A DNA stretch of 64,000 nt from Leptolyngbyaceae cyanobacterium clean351 (GTDB lineage: Bacteria > Cyanobacteriota > Cyanobacteriia > DAIDHW01). Within the stretch, counting starts at the first letter, position 1; each line of letters begins with the position of its first letter. The position numbers and the translations under genes are program-made. Of this stretch, positions 36,552 through 46,036 are shown piece by piece. The stretch is taken from contig DAIDHW010000003.1 of assembly GCA_027451865.1 (NCBI GenBank), positions 6,891-70,890 on the forward strand, read 5' to 3'. The notes under the pieces were generated by a model, which was given only the letters and a program-made list of their open reading frames with translations, searched no databases and had not been told where the DNA came from.

Positions 36552-36929
36552 ATGGATCGAGGCTTTGCGAGCTGGGGATTTCTCGATGAACTAAGTGCCA
36601 CTCAAACTCCCTTTGTCATACGGATTAAAAACAACACGAGAACCGAGCTCGGCCATGAGCGCTATCGGGTCGCGTGGTTTTGTGACTTAGAACGTCGCCC
36701 AACCTTCAATCCTGGGCAAGTCATGACTATTAAGGTAGATGATACCCAGGTATACAGCTATCCCTTCCCCCGAATTGGCCAGTTTCAAACCATCAGGTTA
36801 CCCCTAGCTGCCCAGCCCGGCCCCCATCAGAAGATTGAACTTGCCTACCGTCACTCGGCTGCCTCTCCCCCTGACCCCCGCTCCTTGGCGGTCCTATTTG
36901 AGAAATTGAAAGTGACTGCTAGTCATTGA
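36552..36929 (+). CDS. hypothetical protein; N-terminus resembles the DDE-transposase (IS4-like) 'DRGFxS...FVIRxKxN' region, so possibly a transposase remnant
   Basis: The only support is the MDRGFASWGFLDEL...FVIRIKNN motif. The rest of the protein is not transposase-like. Confidence 0.3.
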   Translation: MDRGFASWGFLDELSATQTPFVIRIKNNTRTELGHERYRVAWFCDLERRPTFNPGQVMTIKVDDTQVYSYPFPRIGQFQTIRLPLAAQPGPHQKIELAYRHSAASPPDPRSLAVLFEKLKVTASH

Positions 36930-37017: not shown

Positions 37018-39141
37018 TTACCGGGTAGAAACGTGGTGGCGGGGAATTTCCGAGAGGAACCGAACGGCTATATCCTCGCTAAAATCCATGAAGTGTTGGG
37101 AGTGTTTAGCAGGGATAAGTTTGATCGCGCTTATTCTCTGTAGTCCAGAGGTGTCGCCGACAAAAAGCCTACCTAGGCTGATTGCTGATCCCAGGTAATA
37201 CCTAGTAAACAGGCCATCATTCCCAGTGGGATAAATGAATCTAAAAGGTCCCCTAACGGATCCATCAGCAAGCTTGAACAAGATATATACGTGGTCTGGT
37301 TTGTATAGGATATCCATAAGACCGCCCACCAATGTGGTTCGAATCCCTAGGTCCGTATAGGTGGCATTGCTTGGGACCTTTAACCACTGATGAAAACGGG
37401 TTTTTGTCCTGGCTGTGAGCACTAGTCCTGGTCTGGCGCAGGCAACGCGGCTAAGTACGGTGAGGGGTCCCTTGGCATACCTAGTTCTATAACAGTTTAG
37501 GATTGCCCTAAAGGTTGCGGGCTCATCAAATATCGGATATCTCCAATCAATAGTTTGAAACTTGTATATAATGTCATCGGCACTTGCCCCATCCCATATC
37601 TGCTCGGCATTTAAGTGATCCAGATAGGGTGTGTAGACAGAATAGGATTGTATAACCGGGCTAGCGAGCAATCTCAGATGGAATCCCTGGACTGCCATGA
37701 GGTCCCAAGGAATAATATTTACCGACTTGTGACCGACGGTGCCTTGTATACTGGCATAACTACTGATCTCTTGCCTGAGGGCATTCTGTTGTTTGTGGGC
37801 AAGGACAGACCTTTGTCTTTTTGATGTCAGTAGGGAAACAAAGTTCCTATAATTCATCACCTCATTTACTGAAGAACTCGATGGCCATCCAAGTAAATGA
37901 ATTGACGGCCATAAACTCTTGTGACTCACCACATAATTCGATGGCAGTGTCCCCAGCATGGGGAATATTAACGCCAGCAAATACATTGCCGAGAGGTTGA
38001 TAAGGGCGATTACATAGGATTTCCTGAGGAGTAGCGCTAGGATTACCACTGATATGAGGAGAGCGGTGCTAAAGAAGGTTAAGGCATGGCCACCAAAAAA
38101 TGCTAGATCGTGCCGTGTAAAGCCCTCCTTCCATGCCCAAAACATCATGACCGCTAGAACTATACTTTGCGCTAGTCGTGGCTTGTCTCCTTTTATCGCC
38201 ACTACGATGACAGTGGCGATAAAAAACAAGAGAATAGCCACTGCAACGATGGTTTGCGGAAGATACCCACTAAGGGACATGGCAGGTGTATAGCCGCGGG
38301 CAATTGCCCATGTTCCGCGTAAATACCCAGGTATATCTCCCATGGTCTGTCCCGCAGCAATCCATAGGCCGAGAAAGGCGATGACAAAAGACAGCAGCGG
38401 AATTAGGGATATCCTTCTCCATATCTTAGTGCCGATATACCACCATAGAAGTGGGTATAGGCAAACAACTGCAAGGGCGATCATCAAAGATGTGGACTTG
38501 ATGAGAGAGCCTAAAGCCAGGAGGAATCCAGAGAAAAATAAGGACAAAAAAACTGCCCCGCGCTCGGTAAGGGAGAGCACGAGCAGTAATAATCCCACAA
38601 AGGCCAATCGAGATGCCAGATCAAGCAGAGAGGCGCCTACTACCCACGCCATTATCGCGGGGATGACTATGTAACTAAACCCCCTGCTCGTCGGTAAAAG
38701 CCTAGGAAGTATGAGGAAAAAGGCTAAACCACAGGCTATCCAACTCACCAATTGAGCCAGGGCAGCCATACCCCATAGGAGGTGATCTGAGTAGAAATAC
38801 GGGTTTTCTAGAAAGCCTAGGGGACCATAGGTGAAGAGAATTGACTTTCCCCACTGTAAATGGTGCTCGAAGCCGTAGCCCAACATCCAAGCCCAGGAGG
38901 TATCTAAGATGTCATTAGTTGGAGCAAAAAAATCAACTAGCCGGGGCGTAGTCAATAGGAGTAACACGAACAGTAGGGAAAAAACCACAAGGTTAAATAG
39001 AATACCTGAAGGCTTTCTACTCCTAGGCTCGCGCTCTTGTAACTGAGGTTTTTCCGACATCTGGTGATCCGTTGACGGTGATGGGTGTTTCCCTGACCCT
39101 GAGGATAGCTGCGGTCGTGGGGGCCGCAAATGAGTATACAC
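37018..39141 (-). CDS. large polytopic membrane protein, putative GT-C-type glycosyltransferase / YfhO-like
   Basis: It has about 12 or more TM helices followed by a soluble domain of about 250 aa, and is AT-rich. The start may be the internal MSEKPQ methionine. Confidence 0.45.
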   Translation of the reverse strand: MYTHLRPPRPQLSSGSGKHPSPSTDHQMSEKPQLQEREPRSRKPSGILFNLVVFSLLFVLLLLTTPRLVDFFAPTNDILDTSWAWMLGYGFEHHLQWGKSILFTYGPLGFLENPYFYSDHLLWGMAALAQLVSWIACGLAFFLILPRLLPTSRGFSYIVIPAIMAWVVGASLLDLASRLAFVGLLLLVLSLTERGAVFLSLFFSGFLLALGSLIKSTSLMIALAVVCLYPLLWWYIGTKIWRRISLIPLLSFVIAFLGLWIAAGQTMGDIPGYLRGTWAIARGYTPAMSLSGYLPQTIVAVAILLFFIATVIVVAIKGDKPRLAQSIVLAVMMFWAWKEGFTRHDLAFFGGHALTFFSTALLISVVILALLLRKSYVIALINLSAMYLLALIFPMLGTLPSNYVVSHKSLWPSIHLLGWPSSSSVNEVMNYRNFVSLLTSKRQRSVLAHKQQNALRQEISSYASIQGTVGHKSVNIIPWDLMAVQGFHLRLLASPVIQSYSVYTPYLDHLNAEQIWDGASADDIIYKFQTIDWRYPIFDEPATFRAILNCYRTRYAKGPLTVLSRVACARPGLVLTARTKTRFHQWLKVPSNATYTDLGIRTTLVGGLMDILYKPDHVYILFKLADGSVRGPFRFIYPTGNDGLFTRYYLGSAISLGRLFVGDTSGLQRISAIKLIPAKHSQHFMDFSEDIAVRFLSEIPRHHVSTR

Positions 39142-39226
39142 CAGAGCAGTTGACCTGGTTCCCCCCCGCTAAGTTCAAGCAAAGCCGTCCTCGAAGGATG
39201 GGGTTTCAACCCAATTTCTCGATGAG

Positions 39227-39643
39227 CTACTGGTGGCTAGGGCTTGAGGGGGGTAGGGGGTTCTGGCTAGCTTGTCTGGCCCGCATTGCCGACTTTACCA
39301 GTTTTACTTGGTAGGGGTCAGCATCTTGGCGCCAGACGACTCGATGCCCTTGCAATTGGGCACAGTGGGCTCCTAGACACTTTTCCCAACCCCGGCGGTC
39401 ACTGATTCTACTTAGGTTATCTAACAGTCCCCAATTCTCTTCTTGGCGAGTCAGGTGGGTAAACCTTTCGTAGAGAGGATAGTCAGGCCTTACTAGCGAG
39501 TCCTTGCGGTGCAGCAGCGGGGGATTATCCTCACGGTCGTAGTCTTGGTAATGGACGTGGAGGTCCCGGAGATCAACCTGCATCCTGGTCTGGAGAGCCG
39601 GATGAGGGTCAGAATCAAATTCAGGGTAGAACATCCCGAACAT
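39227..39643 (-). CDS. hypothetical protein (138 aa), divergent from the HTH gene
   Basis: It is an intact ORF with no recognisable motifs. Confidence 0.35.
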   Translation of the reverse strand: MFGMFYPEFDSDPHPALQTRMQVDLRDLHVHYQDYDREDNPPLLHRKDSLVRPDYPLYERFTHLTRQEENWGLLDNLSRISDRRGWEKCLGAHCAQLQGHRVVWRQDADPYQVKLVKSAMRARQASQNPLPPSSPSHQ

Positions 39644-39699
39644 ACCAGTCCTGGGGGTTTGTGGCCTGGAGGATGACTGCCGTTATGTTGGATGAAACC

Positions 39700-39713
39700 A
39701 TAACAGATGTTAT
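39700..39713. promoter_or_regulatory. perfect inverted repeat ATAACA-GA-TGTTAT in the divergent intergenic region; candidate operator for the adjacent XRE-HTH protein
   Basis: It is a 6-2-6 palindrome lying between the divergent genes at 39643 and about 39763. Confidence 0.35.
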
Positions 39714-39762
39714 ACTTGCCAGCAAAAAGCAACTACTATTTTTGATCAGCAACTTTACAACA

Positions 39763-40557
39763 ATGAGTAAGGCCAACGACGCGCTTAGACAAACTATTGA
39801 GAAACATAATATTAGCCAGAGCCAACTCGCAGAGATCATGGGGATAGAAGGCGCAATAGTTTCAAATTGGTATCACAGTCAGGTTGATCCGAGAGCTGAA
39901 ACCGTAGCAGAGATCGTCAGAGCACTCAAGAGGATAGGCACAAAAGTAGCTGAAGACTTTATCAGGTTCTACTTGGATCTTCCTACTCAGCCCGGGCAAG
40001 ATTATCTGGTTTGTATGGCTGGATCTGAACTACCAGCTTCAGAAGTAGTAGATGTATCCACACTATCCGGCCTGTTTACTCAAACCACCAATTCCTATAA
40101 GTATTTATTTTTCATTTCACTATTAGATATTTTGAAGAGACAGAAATTTAACGTGTTATCACCCATTGGCTTTGGGAAAATAGCCATTGAAATACTTGCT
40201 AATACTTGGTATCCAAGCACCTACTGTAAGCTATCCTTTGGAATTTCAGATAGGCTTCCTAAAATGCTTAGCTCTCTAAAGTTAGACATTGGTAAACCGA
40301 TTTTAAAGTTTACTGATACAGATAAGAATTTGCTACGTAAAACTATTGGAAGTCAGAATTTGAGTTCTATAGTCTTTGAACTACTCAGATATGTCCCTTT
40401 CCGGCTCATCATGCCATTTGTTGAAGCAGAGTTAGAAAATATTGAGCGGGGAATTAGGGGAAAAGGTATGAAAGCTGATTATACAGTCCCTAGAATCGCT
40501 ACAGAGTATTTTGATCTCCGCAGCCCCTATATAAATTTAACTCCTCAGTTTATCTAG
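39763..40557 (+). CDS. XRE-family HTH protein with uncharacterised C-terminal domain
   Basis: It has an HTH (ISQSQLAEIMGIEGAIVSNWYH) followed by a domain of about 200 aa with no recognised motifs. The start is placed at the internal MSKAND methionine; the ORF is open from 39661. Confidence 0.5.
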   Translation: MSKANDALRQTIEKHNISQSQLAEIMGIEGAIVSNWYHSQVDPRAETVAEIVRALKRIGTKVAEDFIRFYLDLPTQPGQDYLVCMAGSELPASEVVDVSTLSGLFTQTTNSYKYLFFISLLDILKRQKFNVLSPIGFGKIAIEILANTWYPSTYCKLSFGISDRLPKMLSSLKLDIGKPILKFTDTDKNLLRKTIGSQNLSSIVFELLRYVPFRLIMPFVEAELENIERGIRGKGMKADYTVPRIATEYFDLRSPYINLTPQFI

Positions 40558-40616
40558 AATGTAATGCAATCAGCGTTCATCCAGCCTGGGCCGACTACCT
40601 ACAAAGAAGCTACGGC

Positions 40617-41006
40617 ATGATTCGTGGCTGGGCATCTTGGGAATGGCTTGAGTATATGCAGAAGTGTAACCCCAATACTCCAGCCATTATCAATAAGTTA
40701 TTCCCACCAAATCACCGAGATTCTCTAATAAAACAAACTGAATACTGGAAATATATACTACAACGTTCTGAGTTTTGCTGTATCTATACAAATGAACTGC
40801 TTAATTATGATCAAATTTCACTTGATCACTATTTGCCTTGGTCCCTTGTAGCTCATGACCAATTATGGAACCTTATTTCTACCTCTCCAAGAATTAATTC
40901 ATCGAAGTCAAATAAGCTTCCCCCAGATGGCTCATTTAATAAGTTCGTTGACTTTCAATACTCTGGCTTACAAGTTTCCTACCAGCACATGTCTAAACCA
41001 AAATAG
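40617..41006 (+). CDS. His-Me finger (HNH/DUF1524-like) nuclease, ending at an in-frame TAG followed by 51 further open codons
   Basis: It has the SLDHYLPWS...HDQLWNLIS...NSSKSNK motif (H-N-H-like with a terminal NKxF). The same frame stays open at 41007-41159 and also upstream from 40515. Confidence 0.5.
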   Translation: MIRGWASWEWLEYMQKCNPNTPAIINKLFPPNHRDSLIKQTEYWKYILQRSEFCCIYTNELLNYDQISLDHYLPWSLVAHDQLWNLISTSPRINSSKSNKLPPDGSFNKFVDFQYSGLQVSYQHMSKPK

Positions 41007-41284
41007 GAAAATTATGTCGAGTCTTTTAAGCTAGATTTAGGCATAAGCAGTACGGTAGAGTTATTAAACCCAGACAGTCTCCGAGGCGCCTACCAGAGAG
41101 TTATCCCTCCCTTACGGTCTCTGGCAAGTGGTCAAGGGTTTCGAGTCTGGCAAAAAATCTAAATTTAGACGAAATCAAAGGGCGCTATCAGGTTTCTACA
41201 AGCACCCCAAACCATTCTCTGGCCACATGTAGATATGTATACAAGCCATTAAGCCTACAAGTTTTTATTACTACACGTAAGTAA

Positions 41285-43576: not shown

Positions 43577-46036
43577 ATGATTGGCCAAATTGTGGGCGGG
43601 CGCTATCGGATCCTCTCCTCCCTAGGCGGGGGAAGCTTTGGGCAGACCTATCTCGCCGAGGATATCCATCGTCCGGAATTCCCCCAGTGTGTAGTCAAGC
43701 TCCTCAAGCCGGTAGTTACTAACCCCAGCTTTCTCCCCTTGGCGCGCAACCTATTTCACAAGGAAGCCCAGACCCTAGAGAGATTGGGAACCCACAGTCA
43801 GATCCCCCAGCTACTGGCCTACTTTGAGCAGGAGGAGAACTTCTACCTAGTCCAGGAGTTTGTTGCCGGCCACACCCTGCGCCACGAGCTCCCGCCCGGC
43901 CAGCCCTGGAGCGAAGCCCAAGTGGTCAAACTTCTCAGAGAAGTCCTCGGGGTCTTGGTATTCGTCCACGAGTGCCGTGTGATCCATCGAGACATTAAAC
44001 CTGATAACCTGATCCGTCGCCAAGCAGACCAACGCCTAGTCTTAATTGACTTTGGCGCGGTGAAGGTAATCCAAGGGGGCCCCGGGGCTAACCCCGGCAC
44101 CATTGCCATCGGTACCCCAGGGTACATGCCCCCGGAACAATCCCAAGGCCGCCCCCGCCCCAGCAGCGACCTATACGCCCTAGGGATGGTCGCCCTCCAG
44201 GCCCTCACCGGGGAGGGTCCTAGTCAGTTGCGCTTTGATGAGGCCGGGGAGGTCCTGTGGCCTCCTACCCCGGGGTTCAGTCCCGAGTTGGTGGCCCTGG
44301 TTAAACGGTTGGTGCGCTACCAGCCCCAGGACCGCTATCAAAGTGCCGCCGAGGCCCTAGGGGCTCTAGGGCACCTGAGGCGGCCTCAACTCCTGACCCG
44401 TCTGGGACGACTGCTCCAAACCCCGGTGGGGGAACTGCTCGGGGGACACCGGCCTACCCCTAGCTTCCCGGTTGCTCCCACGATGCCCCGCTCACCTAGG
44501 ACCCGGGTGTTTATCAGTCATCAGCCCCTCGAACTCGAAGTGGGAGTAGCTCAGGAGTTTTATCGGACCCTGGAGGCGGCGGGTTATCAACCCTTCATTA
44601 GTAGTATGTTTGCTACCCTGGCTAAGGACCAGTGGATCGCGGCCCTAGAGCAGTGCGACCACCTGATCCTCTTACTGTCGGCTCCCTCCGCCAATAGTGA
44701 GCTATTGCTCGAGGAGTTGCGCACGGTCCGAGGGGTGCAGGAGCGCCTGCAGCGCCCGCGGATCCTCCCTATCCGCCTGAATTTTCCCCCGGGCTTACCC
44801 CTCAACTACGAGATCCGCAGCTACCTGCAGGGAGTCCAGCAGCGGTTCTGGCGTCATTCAGAGGACACCAAGGGACTCCTAGAAGAAATCCTAGAGGTGT
44901 TAGCAAGTCCTCTTCTTGCTCCGGAGACCCCCACCACCGGTGGCACCCTCTCCACGGTGGTGCCCTGGGAAACTAAGGGGGCAGCCATCCCCCTGCCAGT
45001 GGCGGAACCGGAGATCCCCCAGGGCTACGTGAACTTGGCCTCGGCCTTCTACATCGAGCGCCCCCCCATCGAGAACCAGTGCTACGAGGCCATCCTGCAA
45101 CCCGGAGCCCTGATCCGGATCAAGGCCCCCCGCCAGATGGGCAAAACCTCCCTGATGGCTCGGATCCTCCACCAGGCTACCCAGGCCGGCTGTCGGAGTG
45201 TTTCCCTGAGCCTGCAGCTAGCGGACGGGAAGGTATTTACGGACTTAGATTGGTTTTTGCGCTGGTTGTGTGCCAGCCTGGGGCGGCGGCTGCAGCTAAC
45301 CAACCAGATTGACCAGTACTGGGATGGGGTGTTCGGTAGTAAGTACAATTGCACCGCCTACTTTGAGGAGTACATCCTGCCCCAGCTGCAGGTCCCCCTG
45401 GCCCTGGGGCTTGATGAGGTGGACCGAGTGTTTGCCTACCCAGAGATCGCTAGTGACTTTTTTGGTCTCCTGCGGGCCTGGCATGAGGAGGCCAAGAACC
45501 AGGAACTCTGGCAACGCCTGCGCCTAGTGGTGGTCCACGCCACGGAGGTATATATTCCCCTAGATACTAACCAGTCCCCCTTCAACGTCGGCTTACCCCT
45601 AGACCTACCCGAGTTTAACGCCGCCCAGGTCCAGGAGTTAGCCAAGCTCCACGGCCTAGTGTGGAGCTTGGACCAGGTGCAAGCCCTGATGGACCTGGTG
45701 GGGGGTCACCCTTACCTGGTCCGTCTAGCCCTGTACCACCTGGCCCAGCAGAATACCACCCTGCAGCGTCTGCTACAGGAGTCCCCCACAGAGGCCGGCA
45801 TGTACAGGGACCACCTGCACGGTCACCTCTGGAACCTCCAACAGCATCCCGAGCTCTTGCGGGCCTTTCAGCGGGTGGTCATGGACCCAGCACCGGTTAT
45901 CCTCGACGCCCTACCTCTATTCAAGCTACACAGCCTAGGACTAGTGCACTTACAGGGCAACCGGGTCAAACCCCGCTGCCATCTGTACCGTCAGTACTTT
46001 CAGCAGATTTTCAAGGCCACAGAGGCCGGGGAGTGA
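43577..46036 (+). CDS. Ser/Thr protein kinase - TIR-like - AAA-like/STAND NTPase fusion protein
   Basis: The kinase part has GGGSFG, a VKLL lysine, HRDIKPDN, DFG and GTPGYMPPE. The TIR-like block is RVFISHQ...LILLLSAPSANSELLLEEL. The NTPase part has a Walker A motif (APRQMGKTSL) in a C-terminal AAA-like domain. Confidence 0.75.
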   Translation: MIGQIVGGRYRILSSLGGGSFGQTYLAEDIHRPEFPQCVVKLLKPVVTNPSFLPLARNLFHKEAQTLERLGTHSQIPQLLAYFEQEENFYLVQEFVAGHTLRHELPPGQPWSEAQVVKLLREVLGVLVFVHECRVIHRDIKPDNLIRRQADQRLVLIDFGAVKVIQGGPGANPGTIAIGTPGYMPPEQSQGRPRPSSDLYALGMVALQALTGEGPSQLRFDEAGEVLWPPTPGFSPELVALVKRLVRYQPQDRYQSAAEALGALGHLRRPQLLTRLGRLLQTPVGELLGGHRPTPSFPVAPTMPRSPRTRVFISHQPLELEVGVAQEFYRTLEAAGYQPFISSMFATLAKDQWIAALEQCDHLILLLSAPSANSELLLEELRTVRGVQERLQRPRILPIRLNFPPGLPLNYEIRSYLQGVQQRFWRHSEDTKGLLEEILEVLASPLLAPETPTTGGTLSTVVPWETKGAAIPLPVAEPEIPQGYVNLASAFYIERPPIENQCYEAILQPGALIRIKAPRQMGKTSLMARILHQATQAGCRSVSLSLQLADGKVFTDLDWFLRWLCASLGRRLQLTNQIDQYWDGVFGSKYNCTAYFEEYILPQLQVPLALGLDEVDRVFAYPEIASDFFGLLRAWHEEAKNQELWQRLRLVVVHATEVYIPLDTNQSPFNVGLPLDLPEFNAAQVQELAKLHGLVWSLDQVQALMDLVGGHPYLVRLALYHLAQQNTTLQRLLQESPTEAGMYRDHLHGHLWNLQQHPELLRAFQRVVMDPAPVILDALPLFKLHSLGLVHLQGNRVKPRCHLYRQYFQQIFKATEAGE

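What the first reader, a model, noticed from the sequence alone, without database searches (positions are those of the whole stretch)
39227..41162. Candidate novel two-gene nuclease module: XRE-HTH protein plus His-Me/HNH (DUF1524-like) nuclease, with a possible third small gene
The module has several parts in order. First comes a 265-298-aa protein with an N-terminal XRE helix-turn-helix and an unrecognised domain of about 200 aa; it has no DGQHR/DGQQR, SRA, WYL or P-loop motifs. Sixty nucleotides downstream is a 129-aa protein with a His-Me finger signature (DHYLPWS...HDQLWNLIS...NSSKSNKxP), similar to GmrSD/SspE DUF1524 nuclease ends. Upstream and divergent is an orphan 138-aa protein. In known systems such nuclease domains are normally fused to a DUF262/NTPase sensor. 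Here the sensor slot is taken by an HTH protein of unknown domain, so this could be an undescribed restriction or abortive-infection-like system, or a split and decaying variant of one.
Basis: partly seen in the sequence, partly recalled or inferred. Interest (0 to 1): 0.65.

Follow-up and report, generated by a model that had tools for sequence, protein, structure and literature searches.

The report
Broken phosphorothioation-linked HNH nuclease gene relic
The supposed two- or three-gene nuclease module is one roughly 466-codon nuclease gene broken by a frameshift and a premature stop, next to a stump of a methyltransferase gene. It is a dead remnant of a DNA-phosphorothioation defence cluster in a cyanobacterium, not a new working system.

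Summary
ORF 39661-40557 (XRE HTH plus an unknown domain), ORF 40617-41006 (HNH) and the tail to 41162 are pieces of one gene, 39763-41162. Restoring one C in the C-run at 40524-40527 and reading through TAG 41004-41006 (aligned with a nearly invariant Trp) gives a 466-aa protein. It is colinear over 99-100% of its length, at 48-64% identity and E down to 1e-197, with about 800 cyanobacterial ~465-aa "HNH endonuclease domain-containing" proteins.

The HNH is the Cas9-type HNH_4, not DUF1524, and its catalytic residues are kept. The "orphan" 138-aa ORF is the last ~17% of a TIGR04096 phosphorothioation-associated methyltransferase.

Intact homologues lie inside Ssp clusters (sspB-sspC-[sspD]-HNH-sspA). 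HTH-less relatives lie beside dndBCDE. The window holds no ssp or dnd genes. The copy also departs from conserved columns more than any homologue (23 of 172).

Verdict: this is a decayed relic of a phosphorothioation island, of low interest as a locus. The parent family, with a middle domain that has no detectable fold relative, is an uncharacterised candidate restriction partner of phosphorothioation systems. That is a moderate lead.

The parts
39763..41162 (+). Single disrupted gene (pseudogene) for a ~466-aa protein: XRE-HTH, middle domain, HNH_4 and a C-terminal helical region
   Evidence: Adding one C after 40527 and reading through TAG 41004-41006 gives 466 aa. This protein is colinear with ~465-aa homologues over 99-100% of its length, at up to 64% identity and E=1.7e-197.
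39784..39930 (+). XRE/Cro-C1-type helix-turn-helix
   Evidence: Pfam HTH_26 E=1.7e-4 and HTH_3 E=2.6e-4. PF01381 is precomputed on most homologues. Foldseek matches to C.Esp1396I have probability 1.0. The recognition-helix region carries substitutions at conserved sites: R30G, F34S, R35N.
40036..40697 (+). Middle domain (aa ~92-312), mostly helical, fold unassigned; it is interrupted by the frameshift
   Evidence: AF2 model of the domain alone has pTM 0.83. No match in PDB or BFVD by Foldseek and none by a PDB profile search. A profile of this domain finds 1400 cluster representatives, mostly ~375-aa proteins of this domain plus HNH_4.
40524..40527 (+). Frameshift site: C4 run where an intact gene needs one more base (AGC CCC CTA = S-P-L)
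   Evidence: Three-frame translation. Homologues read K-P-L-Y-[RK]-F across this point. Inserting one C restores the frame.
40779..40922 (+). HNH_4 (Cas9-type) beta-beta-alpha-metal nuclease core with catalytic D355-H356, N370, N379
   Evidence: Pfam PF13395 E=1.1e-10. PADLOC, NCBIfam and PDB match only the Cas9 HNH. The catalytic residues lie in invariant columns.
41004..41006 (+). Premature in-frame TAG stop
   Evidence: It aligns with a nearly invariant Trp (W415) in 34 homologues, which fits TGG>TAG. The same frame continues in homology to TAA 41160-41162.
41007..41162 (+).
   Evidence: It aligns to the homologues' C-terminus, including invariant E420, L434, A443, Y444, P450, A455, Q458-G459-F460.
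39227..39643 (-). C-terminal stump (last ~17%) of a TIGR04096 phosphorothioation-associated putative methyltransferase
   Evidence: NCBIfam TIGR04096 E=5e-35, profile positions 377-478 of 478, 121 bits, below the 150-bit cutoff. It is 58% identical to aa 595-717 of the 728-aa L021 protein, and that protein scores 886 bits on TIGR04096.
36552..36929 (+). ORF whose first ~45-69 residues are an IS4-family transposase fragment, at the left edge of the low-GC island (context only)
   Evidence: Over residues 1-44 to 1-69 only: Pfam DDE_Tnp_1 partial match E=0.008 and NCBIfam transpos_IS4_1 partial match E=6e-5. The rest of the ORF has no match. GC drops from ~0.62 to 0.38-0.55 between ~36.5 and 41.28 kb.

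Best explanation
The locus is a decayed remnant of a DNA-phosphorothioation (PT) gene island, horizontally acquired by a ~60% GC cyanobacterium.

Shown:
- 39763-41162 is one gene for a ~466-aa XRE-HTH / middle-domain / HNH_4 nuclease. It is inactivated by a 1-nt loss in a C-run (40524-40527) and by a TGG>TAG nonsense codon (41004-41006).
- The divergent 138-aa ORF is the last ~17% of a TIGR04096 PT-associated methyltransferase gene.
- No sspA, B, C or D genes are found in the 64-kb window.

Inferred:
- The ancestral arrangement was methyltransferase(-) ... HTH-HNH(+) sspA(+), with or without sspB/C/D between, as in living relatives.
- Deletions removed the modification genes and most of the methyltransferase, and the nuclease gene then decayed. 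Either it was neutral without its partners or it was harmful without the protective mark.

Most likely ancestral function of the intact family (inferred, about 50%): a PT-coupled restriction effector.
- The HNH_4 domain nicks or cuts DNA.
- The unassigned middle domain and C-terminal helices would couple cutting to the PT status of DNA, so that unmarked invader DNA is attacked.
- The cyanobacterial N-terminal XRE HTH would act like an R-M controller protein, autoregulating expression from its own, usually divergent, promoter.
For: One gene, not two or three:
- Three-frame translation shows continuous homology across the 'gap' and beyond the TAG.
- The joined protein hits 793 proteins. The best are 464-466 aa, with 99-100% coverage and E down to 1.7e-197.
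- The alignment is colinear, places the TAG on a nearly invariant Trp, and reads K-P-L-Y across the frameshift. One added C repairs the frame.

Decay:
- The window copy departs from columns that are >=90% conserved at 23 of 172 positions. The most for any homologue is 15, and most have <=11.
- Of 80 homologous loci, 78 have a single uninterrupted ORF.

Methyltransferase stump.

PT context of intact relatives:
- Pfam-annotated contigs show DUF4007, a BrxC-like ATPase, the HNH gene, Aminotran_5 and PAPS_reduct.
- Clustering of 80 cyanobacterial loci gives the order sspB>sspC>[sspD]...HNH>...sspA. 65 of 80 loci carry at least one ssp-like gene; among loci with both flanks >=8 kb the count is 29 of 37.
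- PADLOC names the neighbours SspB (1e-122), SspC (E=0), SspD (6e-114) and SspA (5e-135).
- HTH-less relatives sit beside dndBCDE or PAPS_reduct in 4 of 4 look-ups.
- The methyltransferase lies on the opposite strand upstream in 10 loci, directly next to the HNH unit in L010, L029 and L083.

Window context:
- tblastn with ssp representatives finds only the methyltransferase stump in the window.
- The low-GC island (gene GC 0.40 against flanks 0.61) lies between housekeeping genes.

Nuclease competence of the family: the Cas9-type catalytic residues are invariant.

Literature:
- 84% of sspBCD modules lack sspE or sspFGH, and other restriction partners are expected (PMC8092258).
- Nucleases in Dnd neighbourhoods have been proposed as alternative restriction components (PMC10853773).
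Against: - The frameshift lies in a homopolymer and could be a sequencing or assembly error. No reads were available to check.
- Only 64 kb of the genome was visible, so ssp or dnd genes could exist elsewhere. Eight intact homologues in other genomes also lack ssp genes within 8-10 kb.
- The restriction-effector role is inferred from synteny and domain content only. No experiment on any family member was found.
- The middle domain has no recognisable PT-binding fold.
- In cyanobacteria the gene sits between modification genes on the same strand, which would also fit a role in modification or its regulation.
- The methyltransferase stump (GC 0.55) and the nuclease gene (GC 0.40) differ in composition, so they may not have arrived together.
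Confidence: 0.85

Rival explanations
1. The gene is intact in the organism. On this view the frameshift, and perhaps the stop, are sequencing or assembly errors in a draft genome, so the locus encodes a functional solitary HTH-HNH nuclease.
For: The frameshift is a single-base length difference in a C homopolymer, a classic error type. Intact solitary copies without nearby ssp genes exist in 8 of 37 fully flanked loci. The catalytic residues are retained in this copy.
Against: A second, independent lesion is a base substitution (TAG at a nearly invariant Trp), which is not a typical homopolymer error. The copy also has the largest number of changes at conserved columns (23 of 172). The adjacent methyltransferase is reduced to its last 17%. 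No ssp genes are nearby.
Confidence: 0.08
2. This is the first reader's model: a functional split system in which a separate HTH/unknown-domain protein acts as sensor for a stand-alone 129-aa HNH nuclease, with a third small gene.
For: Both ORFs have start codons and are in the same orientation. Split versions occur in 2 of 80 related loci (L008, L027).
Against: The split is not conserved: 78 of 80 relatives are single ORFs. The break falls inside the middle domain, between helices predicted as one unit. The 129-aa ORF starts at a non-conserved internal Met. It also lacks the C-terminal ~51 residues, which contain nine invariant positions. The 60-nt 'spacer' is homologous coding sequence.
Confidence: 0.03
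3. This rival concerns the ancestral function. The intact family would not be a restriction effector. It would be an accessory of PT modification, for example supplying a nick or target recognition, or a transcriptional regulator of the ssp/dnd operon.
For: In cyanobacteria the gene lies between sspC/sspD and sspA on the same strand. It carries a repressor-type HTH there and a LexA/CI-type S24 peptidase in some other lineages. DndB is a precedent for a regulator encoded in a dnd cluster (background knowledge).
Against: The same core (middle domain plus HNH_4) accompanies both Dnd and Ssp machineries. These use different DNA-handling proteins but make the same mark (against 11-17, 43). That fits a reader of the product better than a part of one machine. 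Next to dndBCDE it is on the opposite strand, convergent with dndE, like a separate module. Many ssp clusters in the literature work without such a gene (PMC8092258). A pure regulator would not need invariant nuclease catalytic residues.
Confidence: 0.3

Closest known systems
Uncharacterised cyanobacterial ~465-aa 'HNH endonuclease domain-containing protein' family (e.g. Nodosilinea nodulosa PCC 7104, Limnoraphis robusta, Tolypothrix)
   Same: Full-length colinear homology at 48-64% identity. The architecture is the same: XRE HTH, middle domain, HNH_4 and C-terminal helices.
   Different: The window copy carries a frameshift and a nonsense codon, has excess changes at conserved sites, and lacks the Ssp neighbours that most relatives have.
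SspE / DndI / GmrSD (DUF262 ParB-like NTPase + DUF1524 HNH), the PT-sensing or type IV restriction effectors
   Same: A His-Me-finger nuclease genetically coupled to PT modification genes. It is plausibly the restriction arm of a PT system (literature: PMC9646914, PMC11662687; contexts).
   Different: There is no DUF262/DGQHR NTPase domain. The nuclease is HNH_4 (Cas9-type), not DUF1524. The N-terminal parts are an XRE HTH and an unassigned helical domain.
ScoMcrA-type SBD(wHTH)-SRA-HNH nucleases found in Dnd neighbourhoods
   Same: A multidomain HNH nuclease encoded beside PT modification genes, with a non-catalytic N-terminal DNA-related module (PMC10853773).
   Different: There is no SRA domain. 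The middle domain gave no Foldseek or profile match to any PDB entry, and that library should include the ScoMcrA/SprMcrA SBD structures. ScoMcrA cuts PT-DNA and is incompatible with dnd (background knowledge), whereas this family co-resides with modification genes.
TIGR04096 DNA phosphorothioation-associated putative methyltransferase
   Same: The 138-aa ORF matches the C-terminal 102 profile positions. It is 58% identical to the C-terminus of full-length cyanobacterial members.
   Different: Only the last ~17% remains. It scores below the family cutoff and no catalytic region is present.
R-M controller (C) proteins such as C.Esp1396I
   Same: The N-terminal ~70 residues adopt the same XRE HTH fold (Foldseek probability 1.0, TM ~0.67 on the target). 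The gene usually has its own, divergent promoter region.
   Different: Here the HTH is fused to the nuclease rather than being a separate small protein. Operator binding is untested.

Membership tests
Cyanobacterial HTH / middle-domain / HNH_4 family (~465 aa) | Colinear full-length sequence homology | tested here: met
   99-100% query coverage, 48-64% identity, E down to 1.7e-197 for the repaired translation.
Cyanobacterial HTH / middle-domain / HNH_4 family (~465 aa) | Single uninterrupted reading frame | tested here: not met
   A 1-nt loss at 40524-40527 and TAG at 41004-41006. 78 of 80 relatives are uninterrupted. The window copy is therefore a pseudogene member.
Cyanobacterial HTH / middle-domain / HNH_4 family (~465 aa) | HNH catalytic residues (D-H, N, N) | tested here: met
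   D355, H356, N370 and N379 are present and lie in invariant columns. They align to the Cas9 HNH D839/H840/N854/N863 region.
Ssp (SspABCD-linked) phosphorothioation system | sspA, sspB, sspC and sspD present at the locus | tested here: not met
   tblastn of representatives of all four against the 64-kb window gives no hit at E<=0.01. They are present around most homologues. The rest of the genome could not be searched.
SspE / DndI / GmrSD (DUF262 + DUF1524) | N-terminal DUF262 ParB-like NTPase with a DGQHR/DGQQR motif | tested here: not met
   No DUF262/GmrSD_N hit in Pfam, PADLOC or NCBIfam for the ORFs or the repaired protein.
SspE / DndI / GmrSD (DUF262 + DUF1524) | C-terminal DUF1524 (PF07510) nuclease | tested here: not met
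   Only PF13395 HNH_4 matches (E=1.1e-10). There is no DUF1524 hit at E<=0.1.
ScoMcrA-type SBD-SRA-HNH | Sulfur-binding wHTH domain (SBD) fold | tested here: inconclusive
ScoMcrA-type SBD-SRA-HNH | SRA/SAD domain | tested here: not met
   There is no SAD_SRA Pfam hit. The model is almost all-helical between the HTH and the HNH.
TIGR04096 PT-associated methyltransferase (for the 138-aa ORF) | Match to the whole profile above the curated cutoff (150 bits) | tested here: not met
   121 bits, covering profile positions 377-478 of 478 only. A full-length relative scores 886 bits. The ORF is a fragment, not a member gene.
XRE / Cro-C1 HTH | Helix-turn-helix fold and profile match | tested here: met
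   HTH_26 scores 22.2 bits against a cutoff of 22, and HTH_3 is just below its cutoff. PF01381 is on most homologues. Foldseek matches to XRE and C-protein structures have probability 1.0.

The most novel reading that the evidence does not exclude
The parent family would be an undescribed phosphorothioate-coupled restriction effector: an unassigned ~220-aa middle domain plus Cas9-type HNH_4 plus a C-terminal helical region, about 1400 clusters at 50% identity. Some members carry an XRE-HTH or an S24-peptidase add-on. It would serve both Ssp and Dnd modification systems. It could account for part of the large fraction of sspBCD/dndBCDE clusters that lack SspE, SspFGH, DndFGH or DndI. Its middle domain would then be a new PT-sensing or modification-complex-docking module. 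The window copy would be a casualty of losing the modification genes.
Probability: 0.4. Interest if true: 0.6.

Novelty: new member of a known kind. Interest (0 to 1): 0.27.

Why it matters
For this window it matters mainly as a correction. Three 'genes' of a putative new defence system collapse into one pseudogene plus a gene stump, so the locus should be annotated as a relic and not pursued as a working system.

The by-product is more useful. A widespread, unnamed HNH_4 nuclease family with a fold-unassigned domain is consistently encoded inside Ssp clusters in cyanobacteria and beside dndBCDE in other bacteria. Most known PT modification clusters have no identified restriction partner, so this family is a concrete, testable candidate for one of the missing partners. 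The relic also illustrates how such islands erode once the modification genes are lost.

Tried and rejected
- ScoMcrA-like sulfur-binding domain for the middle domain. I modelled the domain alone (pTM 0.83) and searched PDB by Foldseek, BFVD and PDB sequences with a profile. There were no matches. A conserved W-Y-P motif recalls the Y-P of sulfur-binding pockets, but that is memory only, not a test.
- DUF1524/GmrSD/SspE membership is rejected.
- PADLOC on the ORFs and on an intact homologue matched only Cas9 HNH models and weak HTH models. No named defence protein matched.
- Island boundaries: there is no tRNA. The only flanking 16-nt direct repeat (36578/39214) does not extend and is probably chance.
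PyrB places the host among cyanobacteria with no close relative; the best non-self hit is 76% identical.
- Literature searches for TIGR04096, HNH_4 with phosphorothioation, sspBCD with HNH, and SspABCD with HNH and cyanobacteria found no description of this family. The Dnd and BREX comparative papers mention HNH nucleases only generically or as wHTH-SRA-HNH.
- A programmed frameshift or read-through is rejected because relatives are uninterrupted.
Full report
**Observation**

They lie in a low-GC patch of about 36.5-41.28 kb. GC there is 0.38-0.55 against ~0.61 in the flanks. The patch sits between housekeeping genes: aspartokinase, cbiJ and pyrB on the left; an alpha/beta hydrolase, an aminotransferase and dapB on the right. 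Pfam gives a marginal XRE-type HTH on the first ORF (HTH_26 E=1.7e-4). It gives a clear HNH_4 match (PF13395, E=1.1e-10) on the second and nothing on the third.

**One gene, not two or three**

Three-frame translation shows that the 60-nt 'spacer' is coding sequence in the frame of the second ORF. That frame also continues past the TAG at 41004-41006 to a TAA at 41160-41162.

I joined frame 1 (from ATG 39763) to the other frame at the C-run 40524-40527 and read through the TAG. This gives a 466-aa protein that hits 793 proteins. The best are 464-466 aa, with 99-100% query coverage, 48-64% identity and E down to 1.7e-197. Where named, they are annotated 'HNH endonuclease domain-containing protein' or 'transcriptional regulator with XRE-family HTH domain', and the named ones are all cyanobacterial.

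A 35-sequence alignment is colinear throughout:
- Homologues read K-P-L-Y-[RK]-F across the frameshift, where the window reads S-P|L-Y-K-F.
- The TAG falls on a nearly invariant Trp, consistent with TGG>TAG.
- The 51 codons after the stop carry nine invariant residues.

Adding a single C after 40527 restores the frame. Among 80 related loci from GTDB species genomes, 78 have an uninterrupted ORF, so the interruption is not a conserved feature.

The window copy also departs from columns that are >=90% conserved at 23 of 172 positions. No homologue exceeds 15, and most have 11 or fewer. The departures include R30G, F34S and R35N in the HTH. This is a pseudogene. A sequencing error could explain the homopolymer frameshift, but it explains the substitution-type stop and the excess of changes less easily.

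**The nuclease domain**

The HNH is real, but it is the Cas9-type HNH_4 and not DUF1524. PADLOC, NCBIfam and PDB sequence searches match only Cas9 HNH domains. D355-H356, N370 and N379 are invariant.

**The 'orphan' 138-aa ORF**

This ORF matches NCBIfam TIGR04096, 'DNA phosphorothioation-associated putative methyltransferase'. The match covers only profile positions 377-478 of 478 (E=5e-35, 121 bits, cutoff 150). The ORF is 58% identical to residues 595-717 of a 728-aa cyanobacterial member, and that member scores 886 bits on the model. The ORF is therefore the last ~17% of a methyltransferase gene with no catalytic part.

**What the intact relatives are**

Pfam-annotated contigs around intact homologues show the following:
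- DUF4007 and a BrxC-like ATPase upstream.
- Aminotran_5 downstream.
- PAPS_reduct nearby in the loci, on either side of the gene.

I called ORFs in 80 cyanobacterial loci and clustered them. The conserved order is:
- [methyltransferase on the minus strand; 10 loci]
- sspB-like gene (33 loci)
- sspC-like gene (37 loci)
- [sspD-like gene; 10 loci]
- variable insertions
- HTH-HNH gene
- [helicase plus MzaB-like ATPase]
- sspA-like gene (58 loci)

Pfam and PADLOC name these neighbours SspB (1e-122), SspC (E=0), SspD (6e-114) and SspA (5e-135). Some loci add PglZ and BrxL. Overall, 65 of 80 loci have at least one ssp-like gene within 10 kb. Among loci with both flanks >=8 kb, 29 of 37 do, and 8 intact copies are solitary.

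The gene usually has a divergent upstream neighbour, either a MazG/PRA-PH-like gene (23 loci) or a LAGLIDADG gene (8 loci). This implies that it has its own promoter region.

A profile of the middle domain alone finds 1400 representatives at 50% clustering, 892 of them with E<1e-10. Most are ~375-aa proteins with this domain at the N-terminus followed by HNH_4 and no HTH. A few have a C-terminal S24 peptidase. The four such proteins whose contigs could be read all lie next to PT modification genes: three beside dndBCDE and one after PAPS_reduct plus a HIT gene. The core family is therefore linked to phosphorothioation whichever machinery writes the mark.

**The window in that light**

tblastn with SspA, B, C and D representatives finds nothing in the 64 kb except the methyltransferase stump. 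In relatives the methyltransferase lies on the opposite strand with its N-terminus pointing towards the ssp/HNH genes. Nearly full-length or truncated copies sit directly next to the HNH unit in L010, L029 and L083.

The window arrangement is a C-terminal stump abutting the HNH upstream region. This is what a deletion would leave after removing the 5' three-quarters of the methyltransferase gene and whatever lay between. Downstream, sspA is absent and a host hydrolase gene follows at normal GC.

The rest of the island holds two items. One is an ORF (36552-36929) whose first ~45-69 residues match IS4-family transposases. The other is an unrelated 707-aa membrane-protein gene whose best relatives are proteobacterial. 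The host is a cyanobacterium without close sequenced relatives; the best non-self PyrB hit is 76% identical.

**Mechanism**

For this locus, the gene does not work. The longest products are an HTH plus a truncated middle domain, and an HNH fragment lacking both its N-terminal partner domain and the conserved C-terminus.

For the intact family, I favour a PT-coupled restriction effector at about 50%. The reasons are:
- It is an evidently active nuclease, given the invariant catalytic residues.
- It travels with both Dnd and Ssp clusters. These share only their product, PT-DNA, which argues for a reader of the mark rather than a part of one machine.
- Next to dndBCDE it is a separate, convergent unit.
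- The literature expects undiscovered restriction partners: 84% of sspBCD lack sspE or sspFGH (PMC8092258). It also proposes nucleases in Dnd neighbourhoods as alternative restriction components (PMC10853773).

The XRE HTH folds like R-M controller proteins and may time or limit nuclease expression. Loss of the modification genes would make such a nuclease useless or harmful, which fits its inactivation here. All of this is inference; no experiment on the family was found.

The main alternative, at about 30%, is a role in modification or regulation. That is suggested by its same-strand position between sspC/D and sspA in cyanobacteria and by its repressor-type add-ons.

**The middle domain**

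**Comparison with known systems and novelty**

Functionally, the family resembles SspE, DndI and ScoMcrA-type proteins, which are His-Me nucleases tied to PT. It fails the membership tests for each: no DUF262, no DUF1524, no SRA and no detectable SBD.

The window copy is a decayed member of an annotated but uncharacterised family. It is not a new system and not a two-gene module.

**Verdict**

- Interest in the locus is low.
- The family-level lead is of moderate interest and is directly testable with intact homologues.

Noticed in passing
window 37018-39141 (-): A 707-aa multi-pass membrane protein gene (GC 0.48) lies in the same low-GC island, with no Pfam, NCBIfam or PADLOC match. Only 84 homologues were found. 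The best non-self ones (~50% identity) are hypothetical proteins of Acidithiobacillus ferrivorans and Steroidobacteraceae, which suggests a separate horizontal acquisition from Proteobacteria.
   Followed up: partly
window 36552-36929 (+): The first ~45-69 residues of this short ORF match an internal part of IS4-family DDE transposases (Pfam E=0.008; NCBIfam E=6e-5). It is an IS remnant at the left edge of the island. A 16-nt near-repeat (36578-36593 / 39214-39229) brackets the membrane-protein gene but does not extend, so it is probably chance.
   Followed up: partly
window 43577-46036 (+): An 819-aa protein with Pkinase + TIR_2 + AAA_35 domains (AAA_35 E=1.9e-153) lies 2.4 kb downstream of the relic. 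A Ser/Thr kinase-TIR-ATPase fusion could be a signalling or defence protein.
   Followed up: no
P0182, P0184; locus of P0184: Some non-cyanobacterial members of the middle-domain/HNH_4 family carry a C-terminal LexA/CI-type Peptidase_S24 domain instead of an N-terminal XRE HTH. The nuclease core has thus been fused to either half of a classical phage-repressor architecture, hinting at damage- or infection-triggered control.
   Followed up: partly
L086 9614-9997; P0184 contig 889-1269; cluster c4 in 24 cyanobacterial loci, e.g. L074 9043-9552 (-): A small nucleotide-hydrolase gene repeatedly sits immediately beside the HNH gene. It is a HIT-family protein next to Dnd-linked members and a MazG/PRA-PH-like protein (divergent) in cyanobacteria. 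This may be a conserved accessory of unknown role.
   Followed up: no
L006, L020, L021, L023, L024, L029, L032, L056, L060, L061, L071 (cluster c6): A LAGLIDADG_2 homing-endonuclease-like gene (~320-340 aa) is inserted on the opposite strand directly upstream of the HTH-HNH gene in 11 cyanobacterial loci. Uma2-family genes are also inserted between sspC and the HNH gene in several loci. This intergenic spot appears to be a hotspot for selfish-element insertion.
   Followed up: no
L006, L009, L019, L021, L065, L076 (clusters c19-c21, c27): In some cyanobacteria the HTH-HNH gene is followed by a ~150-aa gene, an ~1810-aa protein with no family match, PglZ and BrxL. This is an Ssp/BREX-type-4 hybrid island like the 'sspBCDB-brxCZL' arrangement noted in PMC12914056. 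The 1810-aa protein is unannotated in Pfam, NCBIfam and PADLOC.
   Followed up: partly
L029 6468-7559 (-), L083 6961-8001 (-): Two other genomes also have only the C-terminal half (346-363 aa) of the TIGR04096 methyltransferase next to the HTH-HNH unit, and no sspB/sspC. Truncation of this methyltransferase together with loss of sspBC may be a recurrent route of island erosion.
   Followed up: partly
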